Assembly: GCA_036785375.1 (NCBI GenBank)
Contig: JAWMAR010000104.1
Coordinates: 6,262,001-6,326,000 of the forward strand
DNA: 64,000 nucleotides
From: Leucoraja ocellata
Lineage: Eukaryota
Direction: 5' to 3'
A program made the translations under genes and the position numbers. Positions 1,631-25,800 of the stretch are shown one piece after another; the first letter of the stretch is position 1; every line of letters begins with the position of its first letter. The notes beneath the pieces are model-generated. The model was not told the origin of the DNA and made no database searches. It saw only the letters and a list, made by a program, of their open reading frames with translations.

Positions 1631-1663
1631 CTGATTGCTGCTGATTACTCACCTGTTGCTGGG
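1631..1663 (-). promoter_or_regulatory. Candidate MHC-II X1/X2 module with imperfect inverted Y box (module 1)
   Basis: Minus strand reads CCCAGCAACAGGTGAGTAATCAGCAGCAATCAG, versus HLA-DRA X1/X2 CCTAGCAACAGATGCGTCA. It could alternatively be a minus-strand splice donor (CAG|GTGAGT). Confidence 0.45.
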
Positions 1664-3661
1664 CAGAGGGACCAGGTTGAGATGTGTTTTGGTATACCGA
1701 GGAATGGTGAAGTAATGATCATGAGGTGGTTTCAGCAGCATTTCTGTAAACTTACTCAAAGCAATGTCCCAGAAAGGGCATGGTTCCGAGTGAGTGCCAC
1801 TCTGGGAGGGGCAGTACTGAGGGAGCGGCGCACTTTTTTCCAAAAATAAATAAGTCAATTATTTATAATAACATGTACAACACAAAAGAATACAAACAAA
1901 CCCATATAACACAAAAGTATTAGATATTTCACCATCCTTATTAAGGACACTTTATATCCCCCGCGGTGCCCAGCAGTCCCGAAAACCCCCCATGGCGCAC
2001 CTGGACATATATGGGGTCAGTTTTTACACAGGATCATGGTGGAGGTAGATAAGGTGGTTATGTTTAAGAGGTGCATGGAGGGATGGGGATCACATGCAGG
2101 TAGATAAGAGCTGGAGGGTGGATGCAGCTCTGTAGGACTTTGGCTGGGCTGAATTTACATGCGGTTCTGGTGCAGGATAAGTTACACCCCGGCTGCTCCG
2201 TGCCGAGGGTGTCGTTCCCCCTGCACAAAGCAACACGTTTCCCTCTATCCTCGTCTGCCAGCAACCCCTGGCTGATGGGGACGCTTGGTCACGTACACTA
2301 ACTCCAGCGTTCCCGGCACGTTGCTCCCTCTCGCTGGGAGCCCTGCTCTCTGAGATGACTTATTTTGTATCAACCTTTCATTTGGAGTGTAGCCATCTAA
2401 CACCATCCCATACAATCACACTATTCTTTTAAATCTCTCTTCTATTGTATTGTAACCCACCCCATCCCCTTTGCTCCACCTATTGTACTTGAGTTTGACT
2501 TTATTGGGTGATGCATAGTACAATCTGACTTGATAACACGCAACAAAACGCCGGAAAAGGCGTAGGCAGCCGGCTCGGGCTGGCGCCGTGACTCATGCTT
2601 GGCCAGGCCCAGAAGCAACCCAACCAGGACACCTTCAGCTCTACCCTCCTATGCACAGGGCGTCCAAAGATGAGGATGGTGGGTGTGAAGGCAAGGAGCA
2701 GACCCATTAGATGTTGGAACAGAGGATGCAACCTCACGCTGCACTACGGCAGGGGTGGTAGTGAGGGAGTGCTGCACTGCATCTCAATGCACAGGACTAG
2801 GCTCTTCAGCCAATAATATGCCAAACGTGATATCAATCTGCTGGCATGTGATCCATTCCCTGCATATCCGTGTACCTATTCAAAAGTATCTTAAATAGCA
2901 CCCACCAACCTTTAAAAAAACTTGCCCGCACATCTTTAAACTGTCCCTCTCACATTAATGCTAAATACTAATTTAAAAATTTCCATCCTATGAATAAGCT
3001 TCTAACTGTCTACCTTACCTATTCCTCTCTGGATGCTCCGGTTTCCACTCACATCCCAAAGACATGTGGGTTTGTAGGTTAATTGACCCTCTGTAAATTG
3101 TCCCTAGTGAGTAGGGAGTGGATGAGAAAGTGGGATAACAGAACTAGTGTTAACGGATGAATGATGGTCGGCGTGGGCCGAAGGGCCTGTTTGCATGCAG
3201 TATTTTTAAATCAATAAAACCCACGCTGCCTGAACTCGATGACAATGTCATGCCTGAGTTCTTATATGTGTTAGTAGATGCTTGTTTCCCAAGTTTCAAC
3301 GGACTACACTTCATTAAAAACTTCATGAGTTGCAAAATCCAGAGTCAAGAGTATTTACTTGTCAACTGAACCAGAACGATGACAGCCTTACTTGCTGTAG
3401 CTTGATATATTAAACTCAACAACAAACTGCAAGAAGAAACAGAAACTGCGGATGCTGATTTACAAAAAAAGACGAAGTGTTTCAGTCTGTTGAAGGGTTC
3501 TGACCAAAAACGTAATTTGTCCGTGTTCTCCAGAGATGCTGGCTGCCCCGCTGAGTCACTCCAACAAACGGCATGTGCGTTGTGAGTTTAATTTACAGAT
3601 ACAGCATGGAAACAGGTCCTTCAGTCCACCAGGTCCAAGCCGACAAAGGTGCCCCACCTAC

Positions 3662-4025
3662 ATTGGTCCTGTCTGCGAAGGGCGCTCAGCATCGCCAAGG
3701 ACTGCTCTCACCCCAACCATGGACTATTTAACCTACCATCCGGGAGGCGCTACAGGTCTCTCCGTTGCCCGACCAGCAGGTCCAGGAACAGCTTCTTCCC
3801 TGCGGCTGTCACACTACTCAACAATGTACCTCGGTGACTGCCAATCACCCCTCCCCCCCCCCCCCCCCTCCCGGACACTCCTACCACAGGAAAAACACTG
3901 ACTGCATGTAAATAGATTTATTTATTGAAATCATATTCTATGTTGCTCTTCCAGGGAGATGCTAAATGCATTTCGTTGTCTCTGTACTGTACACTGACAA
4001 TGACAAAGTTGAATCTGAATCTGTG
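3662..4025 (+). mobile_element. Rex1/Babar-like LINE 3' fragment
   Basis: ORF 3649-3837 (CLRRALSIAKDCSHPNHGLFNLPSGRRYRSL...SFFPAAVTLLN) is a typical RT C-terminus. Ends in a short (GAATCT)n tail. Confidence 0.7.
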
Positions 4026-4751
4026 TTTGGTCTAAAACACTCCTATCCATGTACCTGTCCAAGTGTCTGGGTCAGTAGTTATTTTCCCATTGGGGGAGGA
4101 TATTGGTATTAGTTTATGATTTTTTTGGGTAGTGGGATACAGCAAAAAACTTTTGCATGCTATCCAGGCTAATTATACCCTACACGAGTACAAATGAGAA
4201 ACTAAACAGTGCAGAATAGAGTGTTGCACGTAAAGAGGAAGTACAGAGATTTTTAAAAAGTGCAAGGGCCACATTGAAGTGGTAGGTGGGAGTTCAGGAA
4301 TAGTGTGGTTAAGGCAGAACAGCCAGTAGAGCCGCTGCCTCACGGTGCCAGAGAACCCAGGTTTGATCCTCGCCTCGGGTGCTGTTGTGTGGAATTTACA
4401 CATTCAGCCTGTGACCATGTGCATTTCCTCTGGGTGCTCCAGTTTGTTCATAAGTGATAGTAGAATGAGGCCATTCAGCCCATCAAGTCTACACCCGTAC
4501 TAATCCCACATCCCCAAAACCTGAATGTTTACAGGTTAATTGGCCCTCTAAATTGCCCCAGTGTGTAGGGATTGGATGAGAAAGTCAGATAACATCGATC
4601 ATAATAAGTGTGATCGATGGGCGGCGTGGACTCGGCGGGCTGAAGGACCTGTTTCTGTTCTGTCTCTGACTATGAAGGGTGCAATATTAATGCCCTTTGT
4701 TCTTGTTGCGGCTCCATTTGCTGTCAATTAACCAGTCAACCAATTGATTGA

Positions 4752-4971
4752 AGGTACACAAAAAAGCTGGAGAAACTCAGCGGGTGCAGCAGCGTCTATG
4801 GAGCAAAGGAAATAGGCAACGTTTCGGGCCGAAACCCTTCTTCAGACTGAAGAAGGGTTTCGGCCCGAAACGTTGCCTATTTCCTTCGCTCCATAGATGC
4901 TGCTGCACCCGCTGAGTTTCTCCAGCTTTTTTGTGTACCTTCGATTCTCCAGCATCTGCATTTCCTTCTTA
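4752..4971. mobile_element. Penelope-like (PLE) terminal-repeat insertion forming a near-perfect palindrome
   Basis: Arms 4750-4845 and 4847-4942 are reverse complements with about 2 mismatches. 14-bp TSD AACCAATTGATTGA at 4738-4751 and 4972-4985. Each arm carries CTGAAGAAGGGTTTCGGCCCGAAACGTT. Confidence 0.85.
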
Positions 4972-4973
4972 AA

Positions 4974-5008
4974 CCAATTGATTGATGTGTGACTCATCGG
5001 TTGCCAGG
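4974..5008 (-). promoter_or_regulatory. Candidate MHC-II X1/X2 module with nearby CCAAT (module 2)
   Basis: Minus strand CCTGGCAACCGATGAGTCA (4990-5008). CCAAT at 4974-4978. Confidence 0.6.
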
Positions 5009-7825
5009 CAGACTTCCCAGTTGTATTGTGTTTTTAGTTTAGCATGGAAAACAGGCTCTTCGGCCCACGAAGTCCACTCTGACCAGCGATCATCTGTTCT
5101 TACTGGCTAAAATAATGTGTAGGAAAGAATTGCAAATGCTGCTTTACATCAAAGATAGACACAAAATGCTGGAGTAACTCAGCGGGTCAGACAGCATCTC
5201 TGGCGAAAAGGATGTTGACTTTCCGGATCGAGATCCTTCTTCAGGCAGATGTTAAGCTGGAACGAGTGCAGAGAGGATTTATAAGGATGTTGTCGGGGCC
5301 CGAGGGAGAGGTTGAGCAGGCTATTCTTTTGAGCGCCAGAGGCTGAGAGGTGATCTTATATTGGTGTATGAAATCATGAGAGGAATAGATAGGGTGAATA
5401 CACACAGTCTTTTACCCAAAGTAGGGGATTCAGAACCAGAGGACGTAGGTTTAAGATGAGGGGGGAAAGATTTAGTAGGAACTTGAGGGGCAACTTTGTT
5501 ACACAAATGGTGGTACGTATATGGAACGAGCTGCCAGAAGAGTTAGTAGACAATTGACAATAGGTGCAGGAGTAGGCCATTCGGTCCTTTGAGTCAGCAC
5601 TGCCATTCAATGTGATCATGGCTGATCATCCACAATCAGTACCCCGTTCCTGCCTTCTCCCCATATCCCCTGAGGCAGGTACTATAACAATGTTTATTAA
5701 ACATTTGGACAGGTATATGGATAGGTTTGGAGAGATATGGACCAAATGCGGGCAGGTTCATACTGTTATCCTACTTTCTCATCCACTCTCTAGAACAGTA
5801 GGGACAATTTACTGAGGGTCAAGAGAATCTAAAACAGTGTAGATGGGGCATGTTGGTCAGCATGGGCCGATGGACCTGTTTCAATGCTATATGACTATAG
5901 GTTTCTATGACTCTTAAGAGGTGGCAGGGTGGTGCAGTGGTAGAGCTTGTGCCTTACGGCATCAGAATCATGGGATAGATCCTGACTATGGTTACTGTCT
6001 GTGCGGAGTTTGTAATTTCGTCCTGTGACTGCGTTGGCTTTCTCCAGGAGCTCAGGTTTGCATCTACACTCCAAAGACGTACAGGTTTGTTGGTTAATTG
6101 GCTTTTGTAAAATTGTAAATTGTCCCTAGTGTGTAGGATACTGCTAGTGTACAGGGATTGCAGGTCGGTGTGGACTCGGAGGGCCAAAAGGCCTGTTTCT
6201 GTGCTGTATCGCTAAAGACTAAAAGACTCATGCTCTTAAGGTGAGAGGGTTAAGGTTTAAGGCAAAGTCGACACTTGACTCTTGCAAGCGGTGACTAGCT
6301 ACCCGCAGAGAATGCAAACCGCTTCACAAACCTCTCTTAGACATCCTGGGGATGTGAAACTTGGTTTGAGTTTCCTGTTCCTCTTTCAGCAGTCAGACCT
6401 GCTGATTTGGCACGGCGCTAAAATCCCATGATTGTCCACCTTCCAACTTTGTGTGTCCGTGTGTCTTTGCTTTTTCAATCCATAGCTGCCTGAACTCAGA
6501 TATAGTTTGGAAACAGGCCCTTTGGCTCACCGACTCCACGCCGACCATCGATCACCCGTTCACACAAGTTCTATGTTATTCTACTTTCTCATCCGCTCCC
6601 TACACACCAGGGGCAATTTACAGAGGGCCAATACAATATAAAACAGTACGCACAGGAACTGTCCTCTCGGCCCACAATGTCTGTGGTGAACATTATGCCA
6701 AGATATACTGATCTCCTCTGCCTGCACTCGATCCATATCCCTCCATTCTCTACGCGCCTATCTAAAAGCCTCTTAAACGCCATGGTCATATCAAACACCA
6801 CCACCCTCGGTGTGAAAAACTTGTCCTGCACATCTCCTTTAAACTTTGCCCCTTTCACCTTAAAGCTAGTGTTGGACATTTCCACCCTGGGGAAAAGGTT
6901 GACTGTCTACCCTATCTAGCCATTCCAGTGAAAAGGCTTTGCTATCCAAGATTGTACATGGGTACAATCATGCCATACGCAAGTACCGACAGGTAGTTTA
7001 GTTTACATTTACGGCGTGGAAACAGGTTTTTCGGTCCACCAAATGCACCGATCATTGATCACCCATTCACACTGGTTGATTGGATTAATTGATCAATTGA
7101 AAGATACAGCATGGAAACTGGCCCTTCGGCCCACCAAGTCCACCTGTTCACACTAGGAAATTGGAGCACCCGAATGAAACCCACATGGTCACAGGGAGAA
7201 CATGCAAACTACACACACACACACAATGTCTTTATTTGGAAAATTCAAAGGCCTCACAGCACCAGAGACCCATGTTCGATCCTGCCCTTGGGTGCTGTCT
7301 GTGTGGAGTGTGCACGTTCTCCCTATGATCACGTGGGTTTCCTATGGGTGCTCCGGCTTCCTCCCATATATCCCAAAGACGTGCGGAGGAAAAGGATGAG
7401 TTCACATTTAGAACGGAGATGAGGAAACATTTTTTCTCACAGAGAGTGGCGAGTCTGTGGAATTCTCTGCTTCAGAGGGCGGTGGAGGCAGGTTCTCTAG
7501 ATGCTTTTAAGAGAGAGATATATAGGGATCTTAAAATAGCAGTCAGGGGACAAGGCAGGAACGGGGTACTGATTGGGGATGATCAGCCATGATCACATTG
7601 AATTGCGGTGCTGGCTCGAAGGGCCGAATGGCCTACTCCTGCATCTATTGTCTATTGTATGGGTTTATAGGTTAATTGGCCCTCTGTAAATTTCCCCGAA
7701 AGTGGGATAACAGAACTAGTGTGAATGGGTGGTTGATGGTTGGCGTGCACTCATGTTGCATCTCTAAGCTAAATTAAACTAAACTGTGTCCATGCTGCAT
7801 CCCTAAACTAATTTAAACTGTTTCC

Positions 7826-8462
7826 TTGCAGGCAGTGAAGAAAGGTCATGGCATGTTGGCCTTCAAAACAAGAGGATTTGAGTATAGGAGCAAAGAGGTG
7901 CATCTGCAGTTGTACAGGGCCTTGGTGAGACCACACCTTGAGTATTGTGTGCAGTTTTGGTCTCCAAATTTGAGGAAGGACATTCTTGCTATTGAGGGAG
8001 TGCAGCGTAGGTTCACAAGGTTAATTCCCGGGATGGGGGGACTGTCACATGTTGAAAGAATGGAGCGACTGGGCTTGTATACACTGGAATTTAGAAGCAG
8101 GGATCTTATTGAAACATATAAGATTATTAAGTGATTGGACATGCTAGAGGCAGGAAAAATGTTCCCGATGTTGGGGGAGTCCAGAACCAGGGGCCACAGT
8201 TTAAGAATATGGGGTAGGCCACTTAGAACGGAGATGAGGAAAAGCTTTTTCACCCATAGAGTTGTGAATCTGTGAAATTCTCTGCCGATTCTTTGGATTT
8301 TTTCAAGAGTGAGTTAGATAGAGCTCTGGGAGATAGCGGTCAGGGGATATGGTGAGAAGGCAGGAATGGGGTACTGATTGGGGATGATCAGCCATGATCA
8401 CAGTGAATGGCGGTGCTGGCTCTAAGGGCCGAATGGCCTACTCCTGCACCTATTGTCTATTG
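7826..8462 (+). mobile_element. CR1 LINE 3' fragment
   Basis: ORF 7826-8134 [21 protein letters not shown]1 3' UTR GGCCGAATGGCCTACTCCTGCACCTATTGTCTATTG. Confidence 0.9.
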
Positions 8463-8714
8463 CTGTATGTCTAAACTAATTTAAGTTAAACTAAACTGCC
8501 TCCATGCTGCATCTCTAAACTAAACTAGTCAAAGGCCAGGTAATTGTATGATAGAATAGGGCTGAAAGGTAGAATGGCCTTGTAAGTACTTCCTGTAAAC
8601 GCAAGTAGTTTCTCGGTAGCTGTGGCAGGTCTGAAGGGGAACTGAGCCGTGGCCGGCAGAGCTGTGTCTGGGTTTGGTCCAGCGACACCAGAGGCATTCA
8701 GAGGGAGAGAGACA

Positions 8715-8746
8715 ATTGGCTGACTGTTGACTCACCAGTTGCCGGG
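8715..8746 (-). promoter_or_regulatory. Candidate MHC-II X1/X2/inverted-Y module (module 3)
   Basis: Minus strand CCCGGCAACTGGTGAGTCAACAGTCAGCCAAT. Paralogous to 19424-19456. Confidence 0.55.
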
Positions 8747-9192
8747 GAGAAGTCGGAGATGAAGGCGAGTTTTTGAGGTCGTAATTAAAGAGCGAGCAGC
8801 TGCAACGTGTAAAGGCAGAGAATTAACTCTTGAGCTTGCAGCTGATCTCGTAGACACAGGGAACTGCAGAATCTTTGCAGAACATGGATAGGTGATGTTT
8901 CGGATCGGGACCCTTCTTCAGACTGATGGGGATGGGGGGAGAAAGCAGGGAGAGGTGGGGGCGGGACAAAGTCTGGCAAGTGACAGGTGGATACAGGTAA
9001 GGGGTTTGATTGGCAAATGGGTGGGCAGAGATAGGAAGAAGTCACTTCCTTGTGTCTGAAGAAGGGTCCCGACCCGAAACGTTGCCTGGCCATGTTCTCC
9101 ACAGATGGTGCCTCTCACCCGCCGAGTTCCTCCAGCACTTTGTGTCTTCATTTTGTAAACCAGCATTGGCAGTTCCTTGTGTCTCCAACATT

Positions 9193-12100
9193 GGAAACAT
9201 AGAAAATAGGTGCAGGAGTAGGCCATTCGGCCCTTTGAGCCAGCACCGCCATTCAATATGATCATGGCTGATCATCCAAAATCAGTACACCGTTCCTGCT
9301 CTTTCCCCATATCCCTTGATTCCCCCAGTCCCAAGAGCTAAATCTAACTCTCCCTTGAAAACTACAAGTTTCTTGTAAGATCCCCTCTCATCCATCTACA
9401 TTCCAGCGAATGCAAGCCCAATCGACCCATTCTTTCATCATACGTCTTTTCCGCCATCCTGGAAAATAACCTGATGAACCTATGCTGCACTCCCTCAATA
9501 GCAATATTTTCCTTCCTCAAATTAGGAGACCAAAATTGCACACAATTTTCTCACCAGGGCCCTGTACAACTGCAGTAGGACCTCCTTGCTCCTAAACTCA
9601 AATCGTCTCGCAATGAAGGCCATTGGCTTTCTTCACTGCCTGCTATACCTGCCTGCTTACTTTCAGTGACTGATGTACAAGCACACCCAGGTCTCGTTGC
9701 ATCTCCCCTTCTCCTAATCTGACACCATTTAGATAATAATCTGCAGAACATGGATAGGTGATGTTTCGGATCCTTCTTGTCCTTGCCCCCAAAGTGGATA
9801 ACCTCCCATCTACCCACATTATCCAGCATCTGCCATGCTTCTGCCCACTCACCCAACCTATAATCCAAGTCACCCTGCAACCCTGTTTAGTGCTTTAGTG
9901 TGTTTTGTGAGTTGGCTGGTGCCGCTGCTGCTGTGCAGTAATTTTTACACAGCATGTGTAGAGTCGCGTAGAGGAGGGATGAACTCCTGTGGCGACGGAC
10001 AGTTTACGGAATAAAACACCATATTCCATCTGAGCTGAAGAAGCCGTTCCGTGGTTGCCGTGCAGGTGCCAGGCTAAGGGCCAGGCTAAGGGCCTGGAGG
10101 TGGAGATACAAGCCGTTTCTGCTATCGATCCTTATGGGGAACATCAACTCATTCCCTAACAAGTGTGAGGAGTTGGAGGCCCTTATGAAGAACCAACGGG
10201 TCTACCGTGAATGCAGTCTCATGTGTTTTACCGAGACGTGGCTGATGGACATCATCCCGGATTCCTGTGTGGATCTCCCCGGCTTCACTTCGGTACGAGC
10301 AGATCGAGACCCGAAGGCGAGTGGGAAGATCAAAGGTGGGGACTTGCTCTGCTTGTGAATAATAGATGGTGTAATCCAGGTCACATAACTGTGAAAGATA
10401 AGATCTGTTGTCGGGATATTGAGCTCCTGGCGGTTGGACTGAGACCTTATTATGTACCGAGGGAGTTCTCCCACATCGTCGCCATTATTGTTTACATTCC
10501 TCCTCGAGCGGAGCCTGTAGTCGCATGTGACATCACCCAAGAGACTGTCGCAAGATTACAGACCCGACACCCGGACGTACTCATTGCCTTATCAGGGGAC
10601 TTCAATCATGTGAACATCAGCCCCCACTTGTCAGGCTTCTCACAGTATGTTGACTGTCCCACAAGGCACAATAAGACACTGGACTTGTGCTATGTCAATG
10701 TCAAGGAGGCCTATAGTGTCTTAGCCTTTGCACCGCTTGGCAAATCAGATCACAACCTGGTTTATCTAAGGCCTTCTTACAAACCCTGTGTACTGAGACA
10801 GCCTACAACCACCCGGTCTTTCAGAAAGTGGACACCAGAGGCCAGTGAATCACTGAGGGCCTGCTTTCAATGCACAGACTGGGACATACTGATGGAGTCA
10901 CAGGAATTAAACAGCTGTATGGACATCGACTGGATGGCTGGATGCATAACGGACTACATCAACTTCTGTAGGGATGCTGTTGTGCCAGTAAGAACTGTTT
11001 GTTGCTTTCCCAATAACAAACCTTGGATTACAAGCAACATTCAGAGCCTAAACGAGAAAAAGGAGGCTTTCAAGGTTGGTGATCGGGAAAAAATCAAGAG
11101 GGTACAGCACCACTTGAAAAGGAGTATGAAGCAGGCAAAAGGGGACTATAAAAAGGAAGCTGGAGAAGAAACTGCAGTACAACAACATCAAAGAGGTGTG
11201 GAGAGGAATGAAGACCATCACTGGCTTCAAGGAGAAGAGAAGCCAGCCGTCAGGAGACGTGGACAAGGCCAATGAGTTTAACCTGTACAGGTTTGATCTG
11301 GTATCCCCTCCCAACTCTACAGGTGCAGCCTCTCCCCCACCATCACCTCCACGAGGCAGCCCCCCCAACACCACAGCTGCAGCACCTCCTATGCAGGCAT
11401 CTCCTCAACTGTTCTTCACGGCGGACGAGGTGAGAGCTGAGCTGAGGAGGTTGTGCCCTGGTAAAGCAGCTGGCCCTGATGGTGTATGTCCCAGGCTACT
11501 AAAAGACTGTGCGGCTCAGCTGGCAGAGCCGCTCCAGACCATTTTCAACCTGAGCCTCCAGTCAGGGAGGGTACGAGGTTTGTGGAAAACATCATGTCTC
11601 GTGCCGGTTCCCAGAGCAGGGCGGCCGACTGAGATCGACGACTACAGACCGGTGGCCCTTACATCCCATATCATGAAGACAATGGAGCGGCTACTCATTT
11701 GTCTCCTGAGACCACAAGTCCAGCATGCACTTGACCCACTACAGTTTGCATACCAGGAGAACATTGGGGTGGATGACGCAGTCCTCTACATGCTGCACCG
11801 GATCTACTCCTTTTTGGACGAACCAGGTGGCTATGTGAGGATTATGTTCTTCGACTTCTCAAGTGCGTTCAACACCATCCAACCCCTGATTCTGAATGAC
11901 AAGCTTAAGAAGATGGGGGTGGATTCCACATTTATCTCCCGGATATACGACTACCTGACGGGTCGACCACAGTTTGTCAAGCTGGGGGACAGTGTCTCTG
12001 GCACAGTGGTGTGCAATGTTGGAGCCCCACAGGGAACGGTTCTGGCCCTGTTCCTCTTCACCCTGTATACAGCAGACTTTAACTATAAGTCTGACACATG

Positions 12101-14292
12101 CCACGTACAGAAATATTCAGATGATACAGCGATTGTGGCATGTGTAAGGAACGGGCAGGAGGAGGAATACAGGGACTTGGCCAGTTCCTTTTGTGCCTGG
12201 AGTGAAGAGAACTGTCTCATCCTGAACACAACTAAGACTAAAGAGATGGTGGTTAACTTTGGCAGGTCCAAGCTCCCCCTTCAGCCGGTCAACGCTGCTG
12301 GGGCTGACATTGAGGTGGTGCAGACATATAAATACCTTGGAGTGCACCTTGATAACAAACTGGACTGGTCTGTCAACTCTGACTCCCTCTACAAAAAAGG
12401 CCAGAGCAGACTCTTTTTCCTCAGAAGGCTCAAATCCTTCAATGTGTGTAGTGATATGCTGCACATGTTTTACAACACTGGGGTTGCAAGTGTTATTTTC
12501 TACGCTGTTGTCTGCTGGGGCAACAGCATTAGTGCAAAAAACACCAAGAAGCTGGTCAAACTGTTAAAACGAGCTAGCTCAGTGCTGGAGGGGAGAGTAG
12601 ACTCTGGGATGGATGTGATTGAGAGGCGTATGAGGCACAAGGTGCAGGTCATCCTGAAAAACCCTGGGCATCCCCTCCATGTAATTCTGGAGAGTCAAAA
12701 GAGCACTCGGAACAACAACCGGCTCCTCTCCCTGCCCTGTAGAACGGAGCGGTTCAGGAGATCCTTCACCCCTGCACCCATTAGATTTTATAATTTGGAC
12801 CGCTAGGCTGTAGGGGGATGCATTTTTGCAATTTTTAATTTTTAATTGTTAATTATTGGTCTTTTTAAGTATTTATTGCTCTCAGGAAGTGTCCACAGTG
12901 TATTCTATGTATTTTCTGTCTGCGTTCGTTTTGAATCTGTGGGTTTGTTGGTTGGGGGCTTCTGGACATCTGAATTTCCTTGAGGGGATCAATAAAGTAT
13001 TTAAAAAACAAAACAAAATAAAAACCTCCTAGCATCCTCCTCGCAGCTCACACTGCCACCCAGCTTTGTGTCATCCGCAAATTTTGAGATGTTACATTTA
13101 ATTCCCTCGTCTAAATCGTTAATATACAATGTAAACAACTGGAGTCCCAGCACCGAGCCTTGCGGCACACCCCTAGTCACTGCCTGCCATTCGGAAAAGG
13201 ACCCATTTAATTCCTACTCTTTGCTTCCTGTCTGCCAACCAGTTCTCTATCCATTTCAATACCCTACCCCCAATACCATGTGCTCTAATTTTGCACACTA
13301 AGCTCTTGTGTGGGACCTTGCCAAAGGGTTTTTGAAAGTCCAGATACACCACATCCACTGGCTCTCCCTTATCCATTCTATTGGTTACATCCTCAAAAAT
13401 AGCAAAAGATTATTCAAGCAGGATATCCCCTTCATAAATCCATGCTGACTTTGACCGATCCCATCATTACTTCACAAATGCGCTGTTATAACATCTTTAA
13501 TAATCGACTCCAGCATCTTCCCCACTACCGACGTAAGGCTAACTGGTCCATAATTCCCAGTTTTCTCTCTCCCTCCTTTCTTAAAAATGATCACCAATGC
13601 ATCCACGATTTCTTGGGCCACCTCCTTGAGTACTCTGGGATGCAGACCATCTGGCTCTGGGGATTTATCTGCCTTCAGTCCCAACAGATTACCTAACACC
13701 ATTTTGACTAATGTGGATTCCCTTCAGTTCCTCCCTCTCACTAGACCTTCAGTCCCCTAGTATTTCCAGGAGATTGTTTGTATCTTCCTTAATGAATACA
13801 GAACCAAAGTACTCATTTAACTGTTCTGCCATTTCCATGTTTCCCATTATAAATTCACCCGTCTCTGTCTGTAAGGGACCTACATTCGTCTTCACTAATC
13901 TTTTCCTTTTTTTACATACATCTAGTGACTTTTAGTCAGTTTTTATATTCCTGCAAGCTTTCTTTCATGCTCCCCCCCCCCTCTTAATTAACCCCTTTGT
14001 CCTCCTCTGTTGAGTTCTAAATTTCTCCCAGTCCTCTGGTTTGCCGCTTCTTCTGTATTATACATTTATATGCCTTTTCCGTGCTTTAACACTATCCTTG
14101 ACTTCCCTCGTCAGCCACGGTTGAGCCCAGTTTTGTTTTTTCGCCAGACAAGGATGTCCAATTTCTAGAGTTCGTCCATGCGGTCTTTAAATCTTCGCCA
14201 TTGCATCTCCACCGTCAACCCTTTAAGTATAATTTGCCAGTCTATCCTAGCCAATTCCCATCACGTACCTTCAAAGTCTCATTTATTCAAGT
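9193..14292 (-). mobile_element. 5'-truncated CR1 LINE, split by a Rex1/Babar insertion (CR1 parts about 9193-9882 and 13023-14292)
   Basis: Minus RT fragments (MDKGEPVDVVYLDFQKPFGKVPH; LKADKSPEPDGLHPRVLKE). The CR1 sequence GTCACCCTGCAACC/TCCTAGCATCC is continuous across the inner insert. Confidence 0.88.
9883..13022 (+). mobile_element. Near full-length Rex1/Babar-clade LINE (APE endonuclease + RT), two frameshifts
   Basis: Overlapping ORFs 10134-10358 (CFTETWL), 10211-11275 (GDFNH, LGKSDHN) and 11196-12806 (DFSSAFNTI, GAPQGTVL, KYSDD, YKYLGV). 3' end GGGATCAATAAAGTAT plus A-rich tail. Short TSD AACC at 9879-9882 and 13023-13026. Confidence 0.9.
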
Positions 14293-15089
14293 TTACACAA
14301 AAGGCTGTGAGATAAAGGAGTGAAGAAATACAAAATGTGAAGCCAGAGGAGGGAATATAGGTGGAAGGGGACCAGGAGGAGGGGAAGGGTTGTTGAAAGT
14401 TAGTTGCCTAAATTCAAGAGAGAGTTAGATTTAGCTCTTAGGGCTAAAGGAACCAAGGGATATGGGGGAAAAGCAGAAACGAGGTACTGATTTTAGATGA
14501 TCAGCCATGATCATATTGAATGGCAGTGCTGGCTCGAAGGGCTGAATGGTCTACTCCTGCACCTGTTTTTTTATGTTTCTAATTGAACATTTCACTGTTC
14601 ATATCAAAAGACACAAAATGCTGGAGAAACTCAACGGGTCAGGCAGCATCTCTGGAGAAAAAGGATGGTGACATTCCAGGTCGGGACCCTTCTTCAGACT
14701 GAGAGTAGGGGGTGGGTGGGGGGTGGGGGGGGGGGGGGGGGGGATTGAAGAGCTGGAGGTGAGAAAAGAGCAGGACTAATCAGGACCGACCTCAGGCAGG
14801 ATGGTGCCCTGGTTGGCCCAGTGTTGGCTAGGGAAGGTGTGATCAAAGATCATAGATCTTTGGGTGCAATCTCAAGAGGGAAACAATATGGAGAACTGTG
14901 GAACCGGTAATACGACCAAGATGGAGGAAGGGGGGGGGGGGGGAGGAGATTGTAAAAATTTAGTTAAAATTTGAGAATTCAAAATTCATACCACTGGGTT
15001 GTAAGCTACCCAAGTGGAATGTGAGGTGCGGTTCTCTAATTTGCGTGTGGTGGTTGGATTGTTGAGTTAGTGCGGCCATGCAGAAGATT

Positions 15090-15127
15090 CTGATTGGCGA
15101 GCAGTGGTTGAGTCATCAGTTGCCAGG
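15090..15127 (-). promoter_or_regulatory. MHC-II-type X1/X2/Y enhancer module (module 4, best candidate CIITA/RFX site of CD74)
   Basis: Minus strand CCTGGCAACTGATGACTCA, then a perfect Y box (CTGATTGG on + at 15090-15097). Lies 1.6 kb upstream of the CD74 ATG in non-repeat sequence. Confidence 0.75.
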
Positions 15128-15224
15128 TGAAGTCCGCTCTTTAAGAATAAGTTTTGTGTCGATGACTCACAAGTTGCAATAGCTGTTTGTCTGCTTTAGT
15201 CTTTCCTTTGAGTTTGGATGTAGT

Positions 15225-15648
15225 CAGTGCAGGATTTACGTATAAGCTAAACAAGCTATAGCTTAGGGCCCCACTTGCTAGGGGGCCCCCCGAAACAATT
15301 GATGGGCTCGAGGTCTAGGGGGGCCTCCAGCCAAGGCAGAACACCTACCGTTCAACTCTGGGTGGCCCCCCTCTCTATCTCTCTCTCACCATCTCCCCAG
15401 CTATCCGTGTCCGGGCCGCCGGGCTCCGCTCGCTCCTCATCCGCCGGCACGGCAGGCCGCCTTGCACATGCGCACAACCACGGCCAGCACATCATCGGCC
15501 GCCCTGCGCAGGCGCACTGCAACGGCAACTGGTCGGCACTGGGCACTTTCTCCCTCGCTTTGAATTGTGGGAGATTTGGCCGCCATGGCTGTTGGGGGCC
15601 TCACAAGTGGAACAGCTTAGGGCCTCTCTTCATCTAAATCCGCCACTG
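15225..15648. mobile_element. hAT-superfamily MITE
   Basis: TIRs CAGTGCAGGATTTA / TAAATCCGCCACTG. 8-bp TSD GATGTAGT (15217-15224) / GATGTAGG (15649-15656). Confidence 0.8.
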
Positions 15649-16519
15649 GATGTAGGGTTAGGATTATTCTATGCACAGGTACTATTGCTTTGTTTTGCAC
15701 CCCTTGGGGAAAGGTTCTGACTGTCTACCCTGTCTTTGTCTCTCTAGATTTTATATACGGCTATCTCGTCTTCCCTCAGCCTTCGAACTTCCAGACAGAG
15801 AAAACTATCCAAGACTGTCCAACCTCTCCTGAAGCTAATACGCCCCAATCCAGGCAGCATCCTGGTGAAATTGCTGTAAATATACCAGCCCCCTAAATCC
15901 CTACAATCAGTCTGAACCCAATTAACCTACAAACCTGCACGTTTGTGGAATTTTGGGAGGAAACCGGGGCATCCAGAGAAACCCACGCGGTCACAGGGTG
16001 AACGTGCAAACTCCACACACTCAGCACCCGCGGTCAGGACCAAACCCGGGTCTCTGGCACTGTGAGGCAGTGGCTCTACCCTCTGCGCCACTATTCCTCC
16101 ATCAGTTTGTGTTGTTTATTTTTGTATCTGCAGTTCCTAGTTTCTCTAGATGTGTACAAGACCTGTGTCTGTACTGTAGTTTAGTTTAGTTTGGCTTAGT
16201 TTAGTTGAGTTTATTGCCACGTTTACTGGAGGTACAGCAAAAAGCTTTTTTTGTGAGCGCTATCCAGTCGGCGGAAAAACTATACCTGATTACACTCGAG
16301 CCGTCAACAATGTACAGATACAGGATAAAGGGAATAATGTTTAGTTCTCGACCTGAAATATCACCTATTCCTTTTCCCCTGAGACGCTGCCTGACCGACC
16401 CTTGATGGTCCAAGGGTCTCCAATGGGGTAGAAGGGAGGTCAGGACTGCCCTCCAGTTGGTGAGAGGGTGGTTCAGTTGCTGATAACACAATTAGACAAA
16501 CACATTGCTGGTGCTTATA

Positions 16520-16620
16520 TTCGAGGGGCGGGTTTATATATGGTGAAGTACGGCAGGGACTTTCCAAGCTGCAGGAGAGCCAACTTCCTCGTTTTGGCTT
16601 TGTTGAGATTAAAACGTAGT
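16520..16620 (+). promoter_or_regulatory. CD74 proximal promoter: GC box, NF-kB site, PU.1/ETS site, TATA-like element
   Basis: GGGGCGGG 16525-16532; canonical kB GGGACTTTCC 16556-16565; ACTTCCTC (GAGGAAGT on minus) 16583-16590; ATTAAAA 16608-16614. All lie 90-180 bp upstream of the ATG. Confidence 0.7.
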
Positions 16621-16702
16621 GCCTGCCTTGCCCTGCACGCAGTCTGCACACACATCTCTCTAAGAGCTCTCCCTTCAGTCGACAGTGAAGTCCACCGTAA
16701 CC

Positions 16703-16814
16703 ATGTCAGCGAACGAGCAGCAGAACTCTTTGCTGCGAGACTCTCAACAGGATATAGCCAGCAACTCGGATGTGGAGTGAGAGGGGCTACCCCTGCTGCA
16801 GTGCCAGTCCACAG
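16703..16814 (+). CDS. CD74: CD74 exon 1 (cytoplasmic tail [25 protein letters not shown][fs][12 protein letters not shown])
   Basis: Kozak AACCATG; acidic-dileucine-like EQQNSLL; donor CAG|GTAAGG at 16815. 112 nt where 113 is needed, with TGA at 16778-16780 in the ATG frame. Confidence 0.85.
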
Positions 16815-19800
16815 GTAAGGTGTTAACCAAAGTCACTTTCCCATTCCCGATTCCCGGGTTCTGGGGCCTCAAGGATGGACCGCAACTAGGGTTGCCAACT
16901 TTCTCACTCCCAAATATAGGACAAACGGTCAAAATAAGGAACAAATTCTCGACGGCAATTCGTTGACCGACTTGGCCATGGCTGGGTGAATGATGAGTTG
17001 ATTGCACACACAGCCCAGCCGAGGGTCAGCTGAGGAGTTTTGGCCTGGGCGCGCGACGTCGTGCACAAAGTCCGGCACCCCATACACTCATGAATTGACG
17101 ATCGGCCATGAGAAGGAGGGTGGTGGTGTTGGCGTAAGCGAAGGTCCGAAGGTCGGACTGCCGACCGACCAGCCACGGGCGGGGCTGGACGCGGCACTCT
17201 GACCCGACAGTCCCCTCGACCCGAGTAGTAGCAGTCAAATACGGGACAAGGGCGGTCCCGTACGGGACAAACCAATTTAGCCCAATATATGGGATGTCCC
17301 AGTTAATACGGGACAGTTGGAAAACTTAACCGCAACTGTCCAGCACACTTTAGTTTATTGTCACGGGTTCTGAGGTGCAGTGAAAAGCTGGAATCCCAGA
17401 CCATCACACAAACCAACCTCCCTTCCATTGACAGTATACAGATACACTTCACGCTGCCTCGGCAAGACCACCAGAATAATCAAGGGCCAGTCTTTGGTAG
17501 ATACAAGGGAGGGGAGGGGGCGGGATTGATAGGCAGATGGTTGGAACAAAGGCCAGAGACAAAAGCAAGTGTGACATAAAAGGATTGAAGTTGCAAATGT
17601 GAAGCTAGAGGAAGGAATGTAGGTGAAAGAAGAGGGGGGGGGGAGAAATAGGTGTGAGTCTAGGATGGGGAGGAAGGGAAGGGGAGGAAGGGGGCTTGTT
17701 GGAGATTATCTAAAATTGGAGAATTCAATGTTCATACCATTGGGCGTAAGCGACCCAAGCTTAAATATAGAAACAAGTTTATTGAGTGCTGGAGGAACAG
17801 TATCTCTGTATCTCCGGAGGAATGTACAGGCGATGTTTTGAGTCGGGACCCTACTTCACACTTCTGCTTTCAGTTCATTGATGCATGAGATGTTTTGGGT
17901 CTAATTCAGGGAGTTAAAATAGTAAACTTTCAGGGGAAAACATAAAATAGGAAGTGTGATTTGCAGTCTGACAAAGCAATCTAAATATCAGATGTAGCCG
18001 AGGAGATTAGTTTAGCTTGGCATCATGGTCGGCACAGATATGGTGGCCGAAGGGCCTGTTCCGATGCTGTACTGTGCTGTATTAGTCACTGATCCTTCTG
18101 ATTTTGATTAATTGTTTGAAGGAAATCTGTGGGCAGTCACGTTGGCACAGCGGTAGAGTTGCTGCCTTACAGCAAAATGCAGTGCCAGAAACCCGGGTTC
18201 GATCACGACTACGGGTGCCGTCTGTATGGAGTTTGTACGTTCTCCCCGTGATCGGCGTGGGTTTTCTCCAAGGTCTTCGGTTTCCTCCCACGCTCCAAAA
18301 ACGTAGGTTAATTGGCTTGATAAAAATGTAAAATTGTCCAAGTTGGCGATATGCAGAGTACTGCCCCGCTGACTACAAAATTCAGAAGGTTCAGAAGGTT
18401 GTGGCTGTGTCATCCTTTATGTTTTAAAATTCTGGAAGTTTGAAGTTTAGTTGCTACATGTACCAAGGTACAGTGAAAAGCTTTTGTTGCGTGCAAACCA
18501 GTCAGTAGAAAGACTATACCTGATTACAATCAAGCCGTCTACAGTCTACAGATGAAGGGCATAACGATTATTGCAAGATAAAGTCTAGTGAAGTCTGATT
18601 AAAGATAGTCCGACGGGCATAGATAGAGTGGATGTGGAAAGATGTTCCACTGGTGGGAGAGTCTCGGACCAAAGGTGATAGCCTGGTCGCTCTTTTTAGA
18701 AAGGAGGTGAGGAGGAACTTCTTCATTGGCCAGACGGTAGTTAATCTGTGGAATTGCCACATAGGGCCGTGGAGGCCAAGTCAGTAGATTTATTTAAGGC
18801 AGAGATAGACAAATTCCTGATTAGAATGGATGTCAAGGGCTATGGGTGAAGGCAGAAAAATAGGGTTAGGAGGCAGAGATCAGCCATGATTTAGTGAGCT
18901 GGGAGGTCAGGACTGCTCTCTGGTTGGTGATAGTTGTGGACACAGCCCAGACCATCACACAAATAATCCTCCTTCCATTGAATCCAAGACCACCAGCATA
19001 ATCAAGGGACCAGTCTCACCCTGGTCACTCAATCTTCTCCCTCTCCCATCAGACAAGAGGTACAGAAGTGTGAAAATGCACACCTCCAGATTCAGGGACA
19101 ATTCCTTCCCCAGCTGTTATCGGGCAACTGAATCATCCTATCAACACCCAGAGAGTGGTCCTGACTTCCCATCTACCTCATTGGAGACCCTCGGACTATC
19201 TTTAATTGGAATTTAGCTTGCTCTAAACATTATTCCCTTTATCCTGTATCTGTACACTGTGGACAGCTTGATTGACATCATATATAGTCTTTCTACCGAC
19301 TGGTTAGCATGCAAGAACCTTTCACTCACTGTATGTTGGTACACGTGACAAAGACCGAACTATCTCCAATAGGTCCACATCGCCTGCCGAGCGACACCCA
19401 ATGCATTCAGAGGGAGAGAGACAATTGGCTGACTGTTGACTCACCAGTTGCCAGGGAGAAGTCGGAGATGAGGGAGAGTTTGAACCAGGACGTCATTAAA
19501 GAGCGAGCAGCTGCAATGTACAAAGGCAGATAATTAATTCCAGAGCTTGCAGCTAATCTCATAGACACAGGGAACTGCAGATGCTGGAAGCTTGAGCAAA
19601 ACACAAAGCGCTGGAGTAACTCAGCAGGTCAGGCGGCATCTTTGCAGAACATGGATAGGTGATTGGGGATGGGGGGAGAAAGCAGGGAGAGGTGAGGGTG
19701 GGACAAAGTCTGGCAAGTGGCAGGTGGATACAGGTAAGGGAGCTTGATTGGCAAATGGGTGGACAGAGATAGGAAGAAGTCATCTTCCTTGTGTCTGAAG

Positions 19801-22800: not shown

Positions 22801-25800
22801 TCTTAGGGCTAATGGAATCAAGGGATATGGGGTAAAAGCATGAAAGGGGAACTGATTCTGGATGATCAGCCATGATCATATTGAAAGGCGGTGCTGGCTC
22901 GACGGCTGAATGGCCTACTCCTGCACCTATTTTCTATGTTTAAGAAAGAACTGCAGATGCTGGAAAAATCGAAGGTAGACAAAAATGCTGGAGGAACTCA
23001 GCGGGTGAGGCAGCATCTATGAAGAGGAGAAAAGGCGACGTTTCAGGTCGACACCTTCTCCAGACTGGTCGAGACCCTTCTTCTATGTTTCTATGTTAAT
23101 TTTTGTGTCTACCATGATCTGTAGACACTCTCCACCTCCACCAGGGGTCAGTGGTGAGACATAAATCTATTTTCTGGAAACTCATGCAACTGTGGGGGGG
23201 GGGTGAAGAACTGGAGTCGAGGAAATACCAGGACCAAGCACAAACGACCACTAATGATTTCAGGCAGGGTGGTGCCTGGTTGTCCATTGCTGGCCAGGGA
23301 AGGTGTGAGGGGAATGGACTGGGGATGTTTCGGGTCAGGACCTTCTTCGGACTAGTGGTGTAAACTGTAGTGGAGACGAGGAAACACTTTTTCTTACAGA
23401 GAGTTGAGTGTCTGTGGAGGCCAGTTCTCTGGATACTTTCAAGAGACAGCTAGATAGGCAGAGTCAGGGGATATGGGGAGAAGGCAGGAACGGGGTACTG
23501 ATTGGGGATAATCAGCCATGATCACATTGAATGGCGGTGCTGGCTTGAAGGGCCGAATGGCCTACTCCTTGCACCTATTGTCTTTTGTCTATTGCGGGAC
23601 CAATTCTTAACTGTCTTCCATCCATATCCCTGGATAAGGGAGTTGGGACCAGTGTAGATTGGGCATCTTGGTCGGCATGGATGAGTTGGGCTGAAGGGCC
23701 TGTTTGCGTGCTGTGTAGGATTCTGGAGAGTAGCTGAGAGACTTTGGAAGGAGGGAAATGAGAGAGAGAGAGAGAGATCCTGACATTTATTGGATTCACA
23801 GCTCATTGTTATTTGTTGTGCCATCCAGTGGAAGTTTTACAGTTCCACCAGTTTTACTTCCAGGGAATTACCCCGTTACTAATAATAATTAATTGACACA
23901 GACCTTCGGAAAGTCCCTTGCAAATTACAGGGAAACTCCCTGGACAAATTCACTGCGTCGCACATCACTAATAACACCCAATCATACCCAAATCCCTCCA
24001 AAAACTTGTTGTGGACTTTATCTGGCTCTAAACATTATTCCCTTTAACTTGTATCTGTACACTGCAGACGGCTTGCTTGTAATCATGTACAGTTTTTCCA
24101 CTGACTGGATAGCATGCAACAAAAGCTTTCCACTGTACCTCGGTACACGTGACAATAAACTGAACTGAACGGCAATGGGACTAGTGTAAATGAGTGGGTG
24201 GGCTGAAGGGCCTGTTTGTATGTTGTGTCTCTCTGTGGATCAGGGGCCACACACACACCTCTCAGATGTTGTACAGGCCAGTGAAGCATTGAGGTGCTCC
24301 TCCTCCTCACCATTGCCGTTTGCCTTCCAGGACCCTGAGCTGGGGCCGAGGGCTGCTCTACGCTGGCGTATCCATCCTGGTGGCCATCCTCATCGCCGGC
24401 CAGGTGGTCGGCATCATGTTCCTGATGAAGCAACAGGACAAGATAGACGGGCTGCAGAAGACCACGAGACGTCTTGAGAGCAAGTACTCGGCAAGCCGCG
24501 GACCATTCAGTAAGCAGTGCCGCCAGCAATGATCACTTACAATGATCAACTGATTGGGTGGTTGATTGGGTGATTCATTGAGTGCTTGATTGATTGACAT
24601 AATTGATTAATCTGTTTAATTAGATGATTGATTGATACACTGATTGATCAATTTATTGGTGACTGATTGACTGGTTAATTGACTGATTGATTGAATGAAT
24701 GACTGATTGATTCATTAATTAAATGATTCATTGGTTGATTGGGAATTACATAGAAACATAGAACATAGGTGCAGGAGTAGGCCATTCGGCCCTTCGAGCC
24801 TGCACCGCCATTCAATATGATCATGGTTGATCATCCAACTCAGTATCCTGTACCTGCCTTCTCTCCAGACCCCCTGATCCCTTTAGCCACAAGGGCCACA
24901 TCTAACTCCCTCGTAAATATAGCCAATGAACTGGCCTCAACTACCCTCTGTGGCAGAGAATTCCAGAGATTCACCACTCTCAGTGTGAAAAATGTTTTTC
25001 TCATCTCGGTCTTAAAGGATTTCCCCCTTATCCCTTAAGCTGTGACCCCTTGTCCTGGACTTCCCTAACATCGGGAACAATCTTCCTGCATCTGCCTGTC
25101 CAACCCCTTAAGAATTTTGTAAGTTTCTATAAGATCTCCCCTCAATCTCCTAAACTCTAGTGAGTATAAGCGAGTCTATCCAGTCTTCCTTCATATGGAA
25201 GTCCTGACTCCCTCTATGGCAATAATGTCCCTTCCTCAGATTTGGAGACCAAAACTGTACGCAATACTCCAGGTGTGGTCTCACCAAGACCCTGTACAAC
25301 TGCAGTAGAACTTCTCTGCTCCTATACTCAAATCCTTTTGCTATGAATGCTAACATACCATTCGCTTTCTTCACTGCCTGCTGCACCTGCATGCCTACTT
25401 TCAATGACTGGTGTACCATGACACCCAGGTCTCGTTGCATCTCCCCTTTTCCTAATCGACATTCCTTGATCGATTAATTGGTTGTGGATTGATTGACCGA
25501 TTGATTAGTTGATTAATTTATTTGTTAATTGATTGATTGATTGCCTGATGATTGGTCCACTACTTGCTTGTTGGCACCATGAGGCAGCAGCTCTACCCGC
25601 TGCACAACCATTGGGCTGGGGTTGTGAGGGGATTTAAAAAAAAACCTTTGGCCCACTCAGTTTGTTCCTCATTCTGTTTATTCGCCTACACTGAATTTCC
25701 CCAGAACCCTCTCTGAGCTAAGTAAAATCCTCAACGCACACACACACACACTCTGAGGGGGAGCCCCACGGTGAGCTGTTTGCTAGAATTGGGATCCGTC

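What the first reader, a model, noticed from the sequence alone, without database searches (positions are those of the whole stretch)
1631..19456. Array of five co-oriented MHC-II X1/X2(-Y) modules across 18 kb: candidate CIITA/RFX multi-enhancer for an elasmobranch CD74
Seen on the minus strand: CCCAGCAACAGGTGAGTAA (1645-1663), CCTGGCAACCGATGAGTCA (4990-5008), CCCGGCAACTGGTGAGTCA (8728-8746), CCTGGCAACTGATGACTCA (15109-15127) and CCTGGCAACTGGTGAGTCA (19437-19455). Each has a CCAAT-like box 6-11 bp beyond X2, lies in a non-repeat island, and is inverted relative to the gene. A weaker sixth half-module is at 15163-15182. I saw none in the 3' 40 kb. Established: HLA-DRA X1/X2 is CCTAGCAACAGATGCGTCA, and mammalian CD74 uses upstream and intron-1 X-Y modules bound by RFX, CREB/AP-1, NF-Y and CIITA. 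Inference: this regulatory logic is conserved from the gnathostome ancestor and multiplied locally. X2 here is an AP-1-type TGASTCA and X-Y spacing is shorter than in DRA. No convincing S box was found.
Basis: partly seen in the sequence, partly recalled or inferred. Interest (0 to 1): 0.78.

Follow-up and report, generated by a model that had tools for sequence, protein, structure and literature searches.

The report
Skate CD74 repeated immune enhancer array
Five copies of the DNA motif that switches on antigen-presentation genes surround a skate's invariant-chain (CD74) gene and resemble the unusual layout of the human CD74 promoter, so they likely act as long-range enhancers of a control system as old as jawed vertebrates, although no activity has been measured.

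Summary
The five X1/X2 boxes are real and lie around a skate CD74: four between RPS14 and the start codon, one in intron 1, all inverted. A matrix from six skate MHC-promoter X boxes (five first found with a CD74-derived matrix) ranks them top five in the window, with none in 250 kb of background. They are not five independent events: two are a 510-bp local duplicate, and the window is probably a second haplotype of a region assembled twice. They fail the canonical X-Y test: skate MHC promoters keep the HLA-DRA geometry, whereas here the CCAAT-like box is flipped and close, as at the CIITA-bound human CD74 promoter. New here: a shared AAAAC 21-23 bp 5' of X, no X box near the promoter, and a parallel distal array at the skate class II alpha gene. 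The 'sixth half-module' may be a retroelement remnant. Best reading: distal RFX/CIITA enhancers (about 0.6), a new variant of the mammalian Ii distal modules. Function and cross-species conservation are untested. The scan had not noted this before.

The parts
1634..1690 (-). Module M1: AAAAC, X1/X2 at 1645-1663, one-mismatch CCAAT-like box 6 bp after X2; 15.0 kb upstream of the CD74 ATG. X2 is a perfect AP-1 site in the second assembled copy.
4974..5034 (-). Module M2: AAAAC, X1/X2 at 4990-5008, overlapping CCAAT-like boxes of both orientations at offsets 8 and 11; fills a 63-bp island between two SINEs; 11.7 kb upstream
8715..8773 (-). Module M3: AAAAC, X1/X2 at 8728-8746, CCAAT at offset 8; 8.0 kb upstream; duplicate of M5
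8681..9192 (.). Locally duplicated ~510-bp segment (other copy 19390-19903) carrying M3 and SINE pieces
15093..15155 (-). Module M4: AAAAC, X1/X2 at 15109-15127, CCAAT at offset 11; nearest to the promoter (1.6 kb upstream) and closest to the human CD74 promoter spacing (12)
15163..15225 (-). M6 half-site (15163-15182) and its 5' flank; scores poorly as an X box (5.5 against 14.9-23.7) and may be a decayed end of a dispersed retroelement
16525..16590 (+). Proximal promoter motifs: GC box 16525, NF-kB site 16556, ETS/PU.1-like site 16583; no X box (best score 8.6 in 15200-16820)
16703..16814 (+). CD74 exon 1 coding part; one base shorter than the second assembled copy, so frameshifted here
19424..19482 (-). 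Module M5 in intron 1 (+2.7 kb): AAAC (AAAAC in the second copy), X1/X2 at 19437-19455, CCAAT at offset 8
24331..24509 (+). CD74 exon 2 (transmembrane; Pfam MHC2-interact)
26495..33185 (+). CD74 exons 3-8 (CLIP, trimerisation domain, thyroglobulin exon); second one-base frameshift near 29500 in this copy

Best explanation
The five inverted boxes are RFX-type X1/X2 sites around the skate CD74 gene that likely work as distal enhancers, assembling RFX, a bZIP factor and NF-Y to recruit CIITA and loop to a core promoter that has no X box of its own. Shown: sequence, positions, match to this genome's MHC X boxes, genome-wide rarity, duplication of M3/M5, absence of a proximal X box. Inferred from mammalian work: the factors, CIITA recruitment and looping. 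Inferred: the array grew by local duplication of one module whose flipped, close CCAAT box is the CD74-type arrangement also seen at the human CD74 promoter; AAAAC would be an S/W-region element.
For: (1) A matrix from six skate MHC promoter X boxes ranks M1-M5 first to fifth in 64 kb; 0 hits in 20001-64000, 0 in 250 kb of other loci, 0.14 per shuffled 20 kb. (2) Strict 19-mer: 10 hits in 3.44 Gb, 9 at the two assembled CD74 copies. X1 + AP-1 + near same-strand CAAT: 7 hits, 6 at CD74 and 1 at 19 kb upstream of the class II alpha gene. (3) AAAAC shared by four sites in a 3-bp register: 0 of 20000 random sets; AAAC + X finds 13 places, 9 at CD74 and 4 in a TRIM-linked family with canonical Y. 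(4) The human CD74 promoter, bound by CIITA in all five data sets, has same-strand CCAAT 12 bp after X2, and two more CIITA peaks lie in intron 1 (PMC4381081 supplement file 3; offsets read by hand). (5) The skate class II alpha gene has six more X boxes over 38 kb upstream, four with canonical Y, three of them tandem duplicates. (6) M2 persists in a 63-bp island between SINEs. (7) RFXAP is in the genome.
Against: Canonical X-Y geometry, which tracks CIITA-dependent regulation in human (PMC4381081, PMC1802633 passages), is met by 0 of 5, while 5 of 6 skate MHC promoter boxes have the DRA offset of 18. CCAAT is perfect in 3 of 5 and its offset varies from 6 to 11, which changes helical phase. 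No common S box at the 16-bp position was seen by eye. Five of the six training boxes were first found with the CD74-derived matrix, and all genome patterns were designed from the sites. Constraint tests are weak: 2 substitutions in 325 module bases against 256 in 19657 between the two copies, and 1 of 59 against 26 of 371 between M3 and M5; neither is significant. M2's AAAAC runs into a SINE tail. No RNA, chromatin or other-species DNA could be examined. CIITA and RFX5 genes were not searched for.
Confidence: 0.62

Rival explanations
1. The sites are real RFX plus AP-1 enhancers but do not depend on CIITA: AP-1/BATF factors and RFX would give CD74 a CIITA-independent, activation-driven input that works with the promoter's NF-kB site.
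For: All five X2 boxes are AP-1 type in the intact copy, whereas four canonical distal boxes at class II alpha are CRE type. Y geometry is non-canonical. Human CD74 keeps part of its expression without CIITA (0.2-0.3 of control, PMC4381081 Table 1).
Against: The human CD74 promoter has the same flipped geometry and binds CIITA; HLA-DPB1 has an AP-1-type X2 and a CIITA peak; imperfect modules still act as CIITA-dependent enhancers (PMC2278383 passages).
Confidence: 0.17
2. Only one or two modules (M4, perhaps M5) work; the rest are neutral passengers of small local duplications in a repeat-rich region.
For: M3/M5 is a plain duplicate carrying SINE pieces; M1/M2 share 5' flanks; M1 and M2 have imperfect CCAAT boxes; polymorphism tests show no significant constraint.
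Against: Outside M3/M5 the 3' flanks are unalignable while X1, X2, AAAAC and CAAT remain, which neutral decay would not give; the class II alpha locus shows the same multiplication.
Confidence: 0.13
3. The modules are relics or exapted ends of a dispersed ~880-bp LINE-type element whose terminus carries an A-tract, an X1 half-site, an AP-1 site and CCAA at similar spacing, so the likeness to human CD74 is convergent or accidental.
For: 14 of 25 hits of the looser composite are this element. M6's flank aligns to it (0 of 300 random, anchored); M2 is marginal (11 of 300).
Against: M1, M3, M4, M5 flanks score at background; the profile finds only their core (E 0.9-8) and M6 only weakly (E 0.25; 19 of 300 shuffles); the element lacks the 5' half of X1; related subfamilies lack the core.
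Confidence: 0.08

Closest known systems
Mammalian Ii/CD74 regulatory set: promoter module plus two intron-1 enhancers (Ii S'-Y', Ii Y''-S''; PMC1802633 Table 1, PMC2883540 passages, PMC4381081 supplement; Krawczyk 2004 and Moore 1998 seen only as citations)
   Same: Several X boxes per gene, one or more in intron 1 at 1.4-3 kb; GC box and NF-kB site in the core promoter; RPS14 upstream (human synteny recalled); same-strand CCAAT shortly after X2 as at the human promoter.
   Different: Five copies over 18 kb, four far upstream; none near the promoter; all inverted; all with flipped close CCAAT (the human +2970 module is canonical); all AP-1-type X2; shared AAAAC.
Distal S'-Y' / XL enhancers of the human MHC class II locus (PMC7866136, PMC1802633 passages)
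   Same: Distal X-box modules, some inverted, away from the promoter; the skate class II alpha locus has a comparable array.
   Different: Those were defined by canonical S-X-Y order and spacing or X homology and shown to bind RFX and CIITA; these fail the spacing and are untested.
Canonical S-X1-X2-Y promoter module (HLA-DRA type), also present at skate class I and class II alpha promoters
   Same: X1 sequence, pyrimidine-rich 5' edge, adjoining bZIP site.
   Different: Y box orientation and spacing, no recognisable S box, distal and inverted position.

Membership tests
Canonical S-X1-X2-Y module | X1 box of RFX type | tested here: met
   Top five scores with a matrix from skate MHC promoters; five of top six with X1 alone
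Canonical S-X1-X2-Y module | Adjoining X2 (CRE/AP-1-like) | tested here: met
   AP-1 site in 4 of 5 here, 5 of 5 in the second copy
Canonical S-X1-X2-Y module | Inverted CCAAT (ATTGG on the X strand) about 18 bp after X2 | tested here: not met
   0 of 5; skate MHC promoter boxes 18, 18, 20, 18, 18, 18
Canonical S-X1-X2-Y module | S box about 16 bp 5' of X | tested here: inconclusive
   Only shared word in 60 bp upstream is AAAAC, 21-23 bp from X; whether it stands in for S/W is unknown
CD74-promoter-type module (flipped, close CCAAT) | Same-strand CCAAT about 12 bp after X2 | tested here: inconclusive
   Orientation matches; perfect box at 8, 8, 11, one-mismatch boxes at 6 and 8; human 12; shared CAAT in an 8-bp register arises in 182 of 20000 random sets
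Distal RFX/CIITA enhancer (S'-Y'/XL) | Lies away from the promoter of a class II pathway gene | tested here: met
   -15.0, -11.7, -8.0, -1.6 and +2.7 kb from the CD74 ATG
Distal RFX/CIITA enhancer (S'-Y'/XL) | Bound by RFX and CIITA in vivo; CIITA-dependent reporter activity | not testable with these tools
   Needs ChIP, ATAC or reporters
Distal RFX/CIITA enhancer (S'-Y'/XL) | Conserved across related species | not testable with these tools
   No relatives' genomes held
Dispersed repeat | Flanks shared with many unlinked copies | tested here: not met
   141 bp around M3 matches only 4 places, all at CD74 (search skips very common words); M1-M5 flanks do not align to the look-alike element; M6 is doubtful

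The most novel reading that the evidence does not exclude
The flipped, close Y box is an ancestral CD74-specific enhanceosome, distinct from the DRA-type one since the jawed-vertebrate ancestor, and the skate runs CD74 wholly from a five-module inverted array with no proximal module and with a new AAAAC upstream element. That would give several natural replicates for finding the still unidentified S/W-region factor and for how CIITA tolerates two geometries.
Probability: 0.3. Interest if true: 0.72.

Novelty: new variant of a known kind. Interest (0 to 1): 0.52.

Why it matters
It is sequence evidence that RFX/CIITA-type control of the class II pathway, including distal enhancer arrays at both CD74 and class II alpha, exists in cartilaginous fish, and that the odd layout of the human CD74 promoter may be very old. 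The same genome holds canonical and flipped modules side by side, which makes a reporter test of enhanceosome grammar straightforward. The general principle (distal X-box enhancers at CD74) is already known in mammals.

Tried and rejected
RNA evidence for the start site and expression could not be obtained, so the promoter is placed from the ATG only. Two real CD74 paralogues: unlikely; the second copy starts within 1.5 kb of a 200-N gap, spans about 185 kb at about 98% and includes RPS14, so it was not counted as independent evidence; a recent tandem duplication with pseudogenisation is not excluded. A divergent gene as target: the upstream neighbour RPS14 is on the same strand and ends before the array; ORFs in the interval were only partly scanned (6 window ORFs from 2181-15717, one LINE reverse transcriptase). 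Structured RNA: no Rfam match in the window or 20 kb upstream. Further modules upstream: none beyond the duplicate set in 200 kb. ISRE, EICE, GAS and PU.1 motifs near the modules: none in unique sequence except an IRF half-site near M4/M6. Class II beta: no match in the assembly, so its promoter was not seen. One search used a one-base-shifted class II alpha box and is superseded for scores. The C51 hit has no AAAC or CCAAT and is within chance (control 2). Primary papers on the Ii promoter and shark Ii were not held.
Full report
OBSERVATION. The five 19-mers and the half-site are present as written. I call them M1 (1645), M2 (4990), M3 (8728), M4 (15109), M5 (19437) and M6 (15163). A pattern made from them gives 5 window matches against 0.22 in shuffles, which is circular; leave-one-out matrices still place each held-out site in the top five. 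All are in unmasked islands, M2 in one of 63 bp. M3 and M5 are copies of a ~510-bp segment and the 5' flanks of M1 and M2 are alike (3 of 5000 random pairs), so at most four sites are independent.

THE GENE. Pfam MHC2-interact matches window 24338-24529. Exon 2 is 97-98% identical to skate proteins, and these place the ATG at 16703 and later exons to 33186. RPS14 lies just upstream on the same strand. M1-M4 are 15.0, 11.7, 8.0 and 1.6 kb upstream, M5 is 2.7 kb into intron 1, and all are antisense. The core promoter has a GC box, an NF-kB site and an ETS-like site (motif definitions recalled) but no X box: best score 8.6 against 14.9-23.7 for the modules.

ASSEMBLY. The window has a 97-98% twin 176 kb upstream. 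The duplication begins within 1.5 kb of a 200-N gap and runs about 185 kb, with 860 substitutions and 237 indels in 61,797 aligned bases. The twin's CD74 exons 1 and 5 are in frame; the window's each lack one base. This fits a second haplotype assembled in tandem, though read depth was not available. In the twin M1 has a perfect AP-1 site and M5 a full AAAAC.

SPECIFICITY. The strict pattern has 10 hits in 3.44 Gb, 9 at the two CD74 copies, control 2. X1 + AP-1 + near same-strand CAAT has 7 hits, 6 at CD74 and 1 upstream of class II alpha. A looser pattern without the 5' half of X1 has 25 hits: 6 at CD74, 14 that read as the end of one dispersed element (9 fetched and aligned), 5 others.

INTERNAL CONTROLS. 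The class II alpha promoter, read by eye about 200 bp before the leader exon, has an X box and an ATTGG 18 bp after X2. Five more boxes lie at class I loci; three precede leader-like exons, two are a paralogous pair without a leader seen. Their offsets are 18, 20, 18, 18, 18; HLA-DRA's is 18 as read from PMC4381081 supplement file 3. A matrix from these six ranks M1-M5 first to fifth in the window, with 0 hits in 20001-64000, 0 in 250 kb of other loci and 0.14 per shuffled 20 kb; five of the six were first picked with the CD74 matrix plus a Y filter, so independence is partial. Class II alpha also has six distal boxes over 38 kb upstream, all sense: four canonical (three are ~2-kb tandem duplicates), one with AP-1 and an adjacent CCAAT, one without Y. 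RFXAP is encoded.

GEOMETRY. No module has the canonical Y. Instead a same-strand CCAAT follows at 8, 8 and 11 bp, with one-mismatch forms at 6 and 8. The human CD74 promoter peak, found in all five CIITA data sets, reads on the gene strand as X1, X2, then same-strand CCAAT after 12 bp (reverse-complemented and counted by hand). Two further peaks lie at +1436 and +2970; by the table's strand column both are antisense, although the names in PMC1802633 imply one of each orientation. So the skate modules resemble the CD74 promoter, not DRA. An AP-1-type X2 also occurs at skate class I promoters and HLA-DPB1. The only word shared upstream is AAAAC, 21-23 bp from X (0 of 20000 random sets). Adding AAAC to a relaxed X pattern gives 13 hits: 9 at CD74 and 4 in a paralogous family with canonical Y near TRIM genes. 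One canonical class II alpha distal box has AAAC at 20 bp. M2's AAAAC is continuous with a SINE tail, which weakens it.

MECHANISM. Most likely (0.62) each module binds RFX at X1, a bZIP dimer at X2 and NF-Y at the CCAAT box, recruits CIITA, and contacts the NF-kB/GC-box promoter. The sequence facts are shown; the factors and looping are inferred from mammalian studies (passages of PMC1802633, PMC2278383, PMC7866136, PMC2883540). Rivals: CIITA-independent RFX/AP-1 enhancers (0.17), mostly neutral duplicates (0.13), retroelement origin (0.08). For the last, the ~880-bp element ends in an A-tract, X1 half-site, AP-1 site and CCAA. M6's flank aligns to it in an anchored test (0 of 300 random) but weakly otherwise (5 of 1000 random, 19 of 300 shuffles, profile E 0.25); M2 is marginal; M1, M3, M4, M5 are at background. 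Constraint tests were not significant.

KNOWN AND NEW. Distal and intronic X-box enhancers of CD74 and class II are known in mammals. Ten full-text searches (listings only) showed no paper on cis-regulation of a chondrichthyan CD74; the library lacks most subscription papers, and the shark invariant-chain paper and the early Ii promoter papers were not held, so the flipped Y of mammalian Ii is probably described there (recalled) and shark promoter data may be too. Seen: passages of PMC4381081 (plus part 1 of 8 and searches of supplement file 3; file 1 not searchable), PMC1802633, PMC2278383, PMC2883540, PMC4374748, PMC7866136, PMC6523485, PMC6155461; abstract and references of PMC2191494. Earlier findings of the scan held nothing on this.

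VERDICT. A real, locus-specific array; works like the mammalian distal RFX/CIITA enhancers by inference; not a member of the canonical S-X-Y class. New variant of a known kind; interest 0.52.

Noticed in passing
G000:C541:474191-512157 (L089, L058, L057, L041, L038): Seven sense-oriented X boxes upstream of the MHC class II alpha gene: the promoter box and six distal ones, three from ~2-kb tandem duplications; NF-kB and ISRE-like motifs follow some of them.
   Followed up: partly
L053:9590-9760 and 12 other places (C230, C521, C591, C846, C2854, C1506, C481, C156): A paralogous family of elements with kB-like, ISRE-like, X1/X2 and canonical Y boxes, resembling a class I-type module; two of them lie near TRIM genes (RING, B-box, PRY-SPRY exons).
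   Followed up: partly
L062:976-1094 and L067:3218-3320: Skate class I promoters with two X-Y modules in tandem, 84-100 bp apart, one CRE type and one AP-1 type.
   Followed up: partly
L026-L034: Dispersed ~880-bp LINE-type element whose terminus carries an X1 half-site and an AP-1 site; related subfamilies lack it. It could seed AP-1 sites across the genome.
   Followed up: partly
G000:C104:5964000-6149223 against 6150900-6326000: About 185 kb assembled twice in tandem across a 200-N gap; the window's CD74 copy has two one-base frameshifts. RFXAP also appears twice with equal scores.
   Followed up: yes
window 2003-2551: A 350-570-bp segment repeated three more times in and around RPS14 (85-93% identity); no Rfam match.
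   Followed up: partly
window 9883-13022: LINE insertion with a reverse transcriptase ORF between M3 and M4.
   Followed up: partly
G000:C104:6212513-6220361 (L020): An 8-kb array of 81-bp tandem repeats at about 98.6% identity.
   Followed up: no
G000, whole: No MHC class II beta exon was found and only one class II alpha; the assembly may lack part of the MHC.
   Followed up: no
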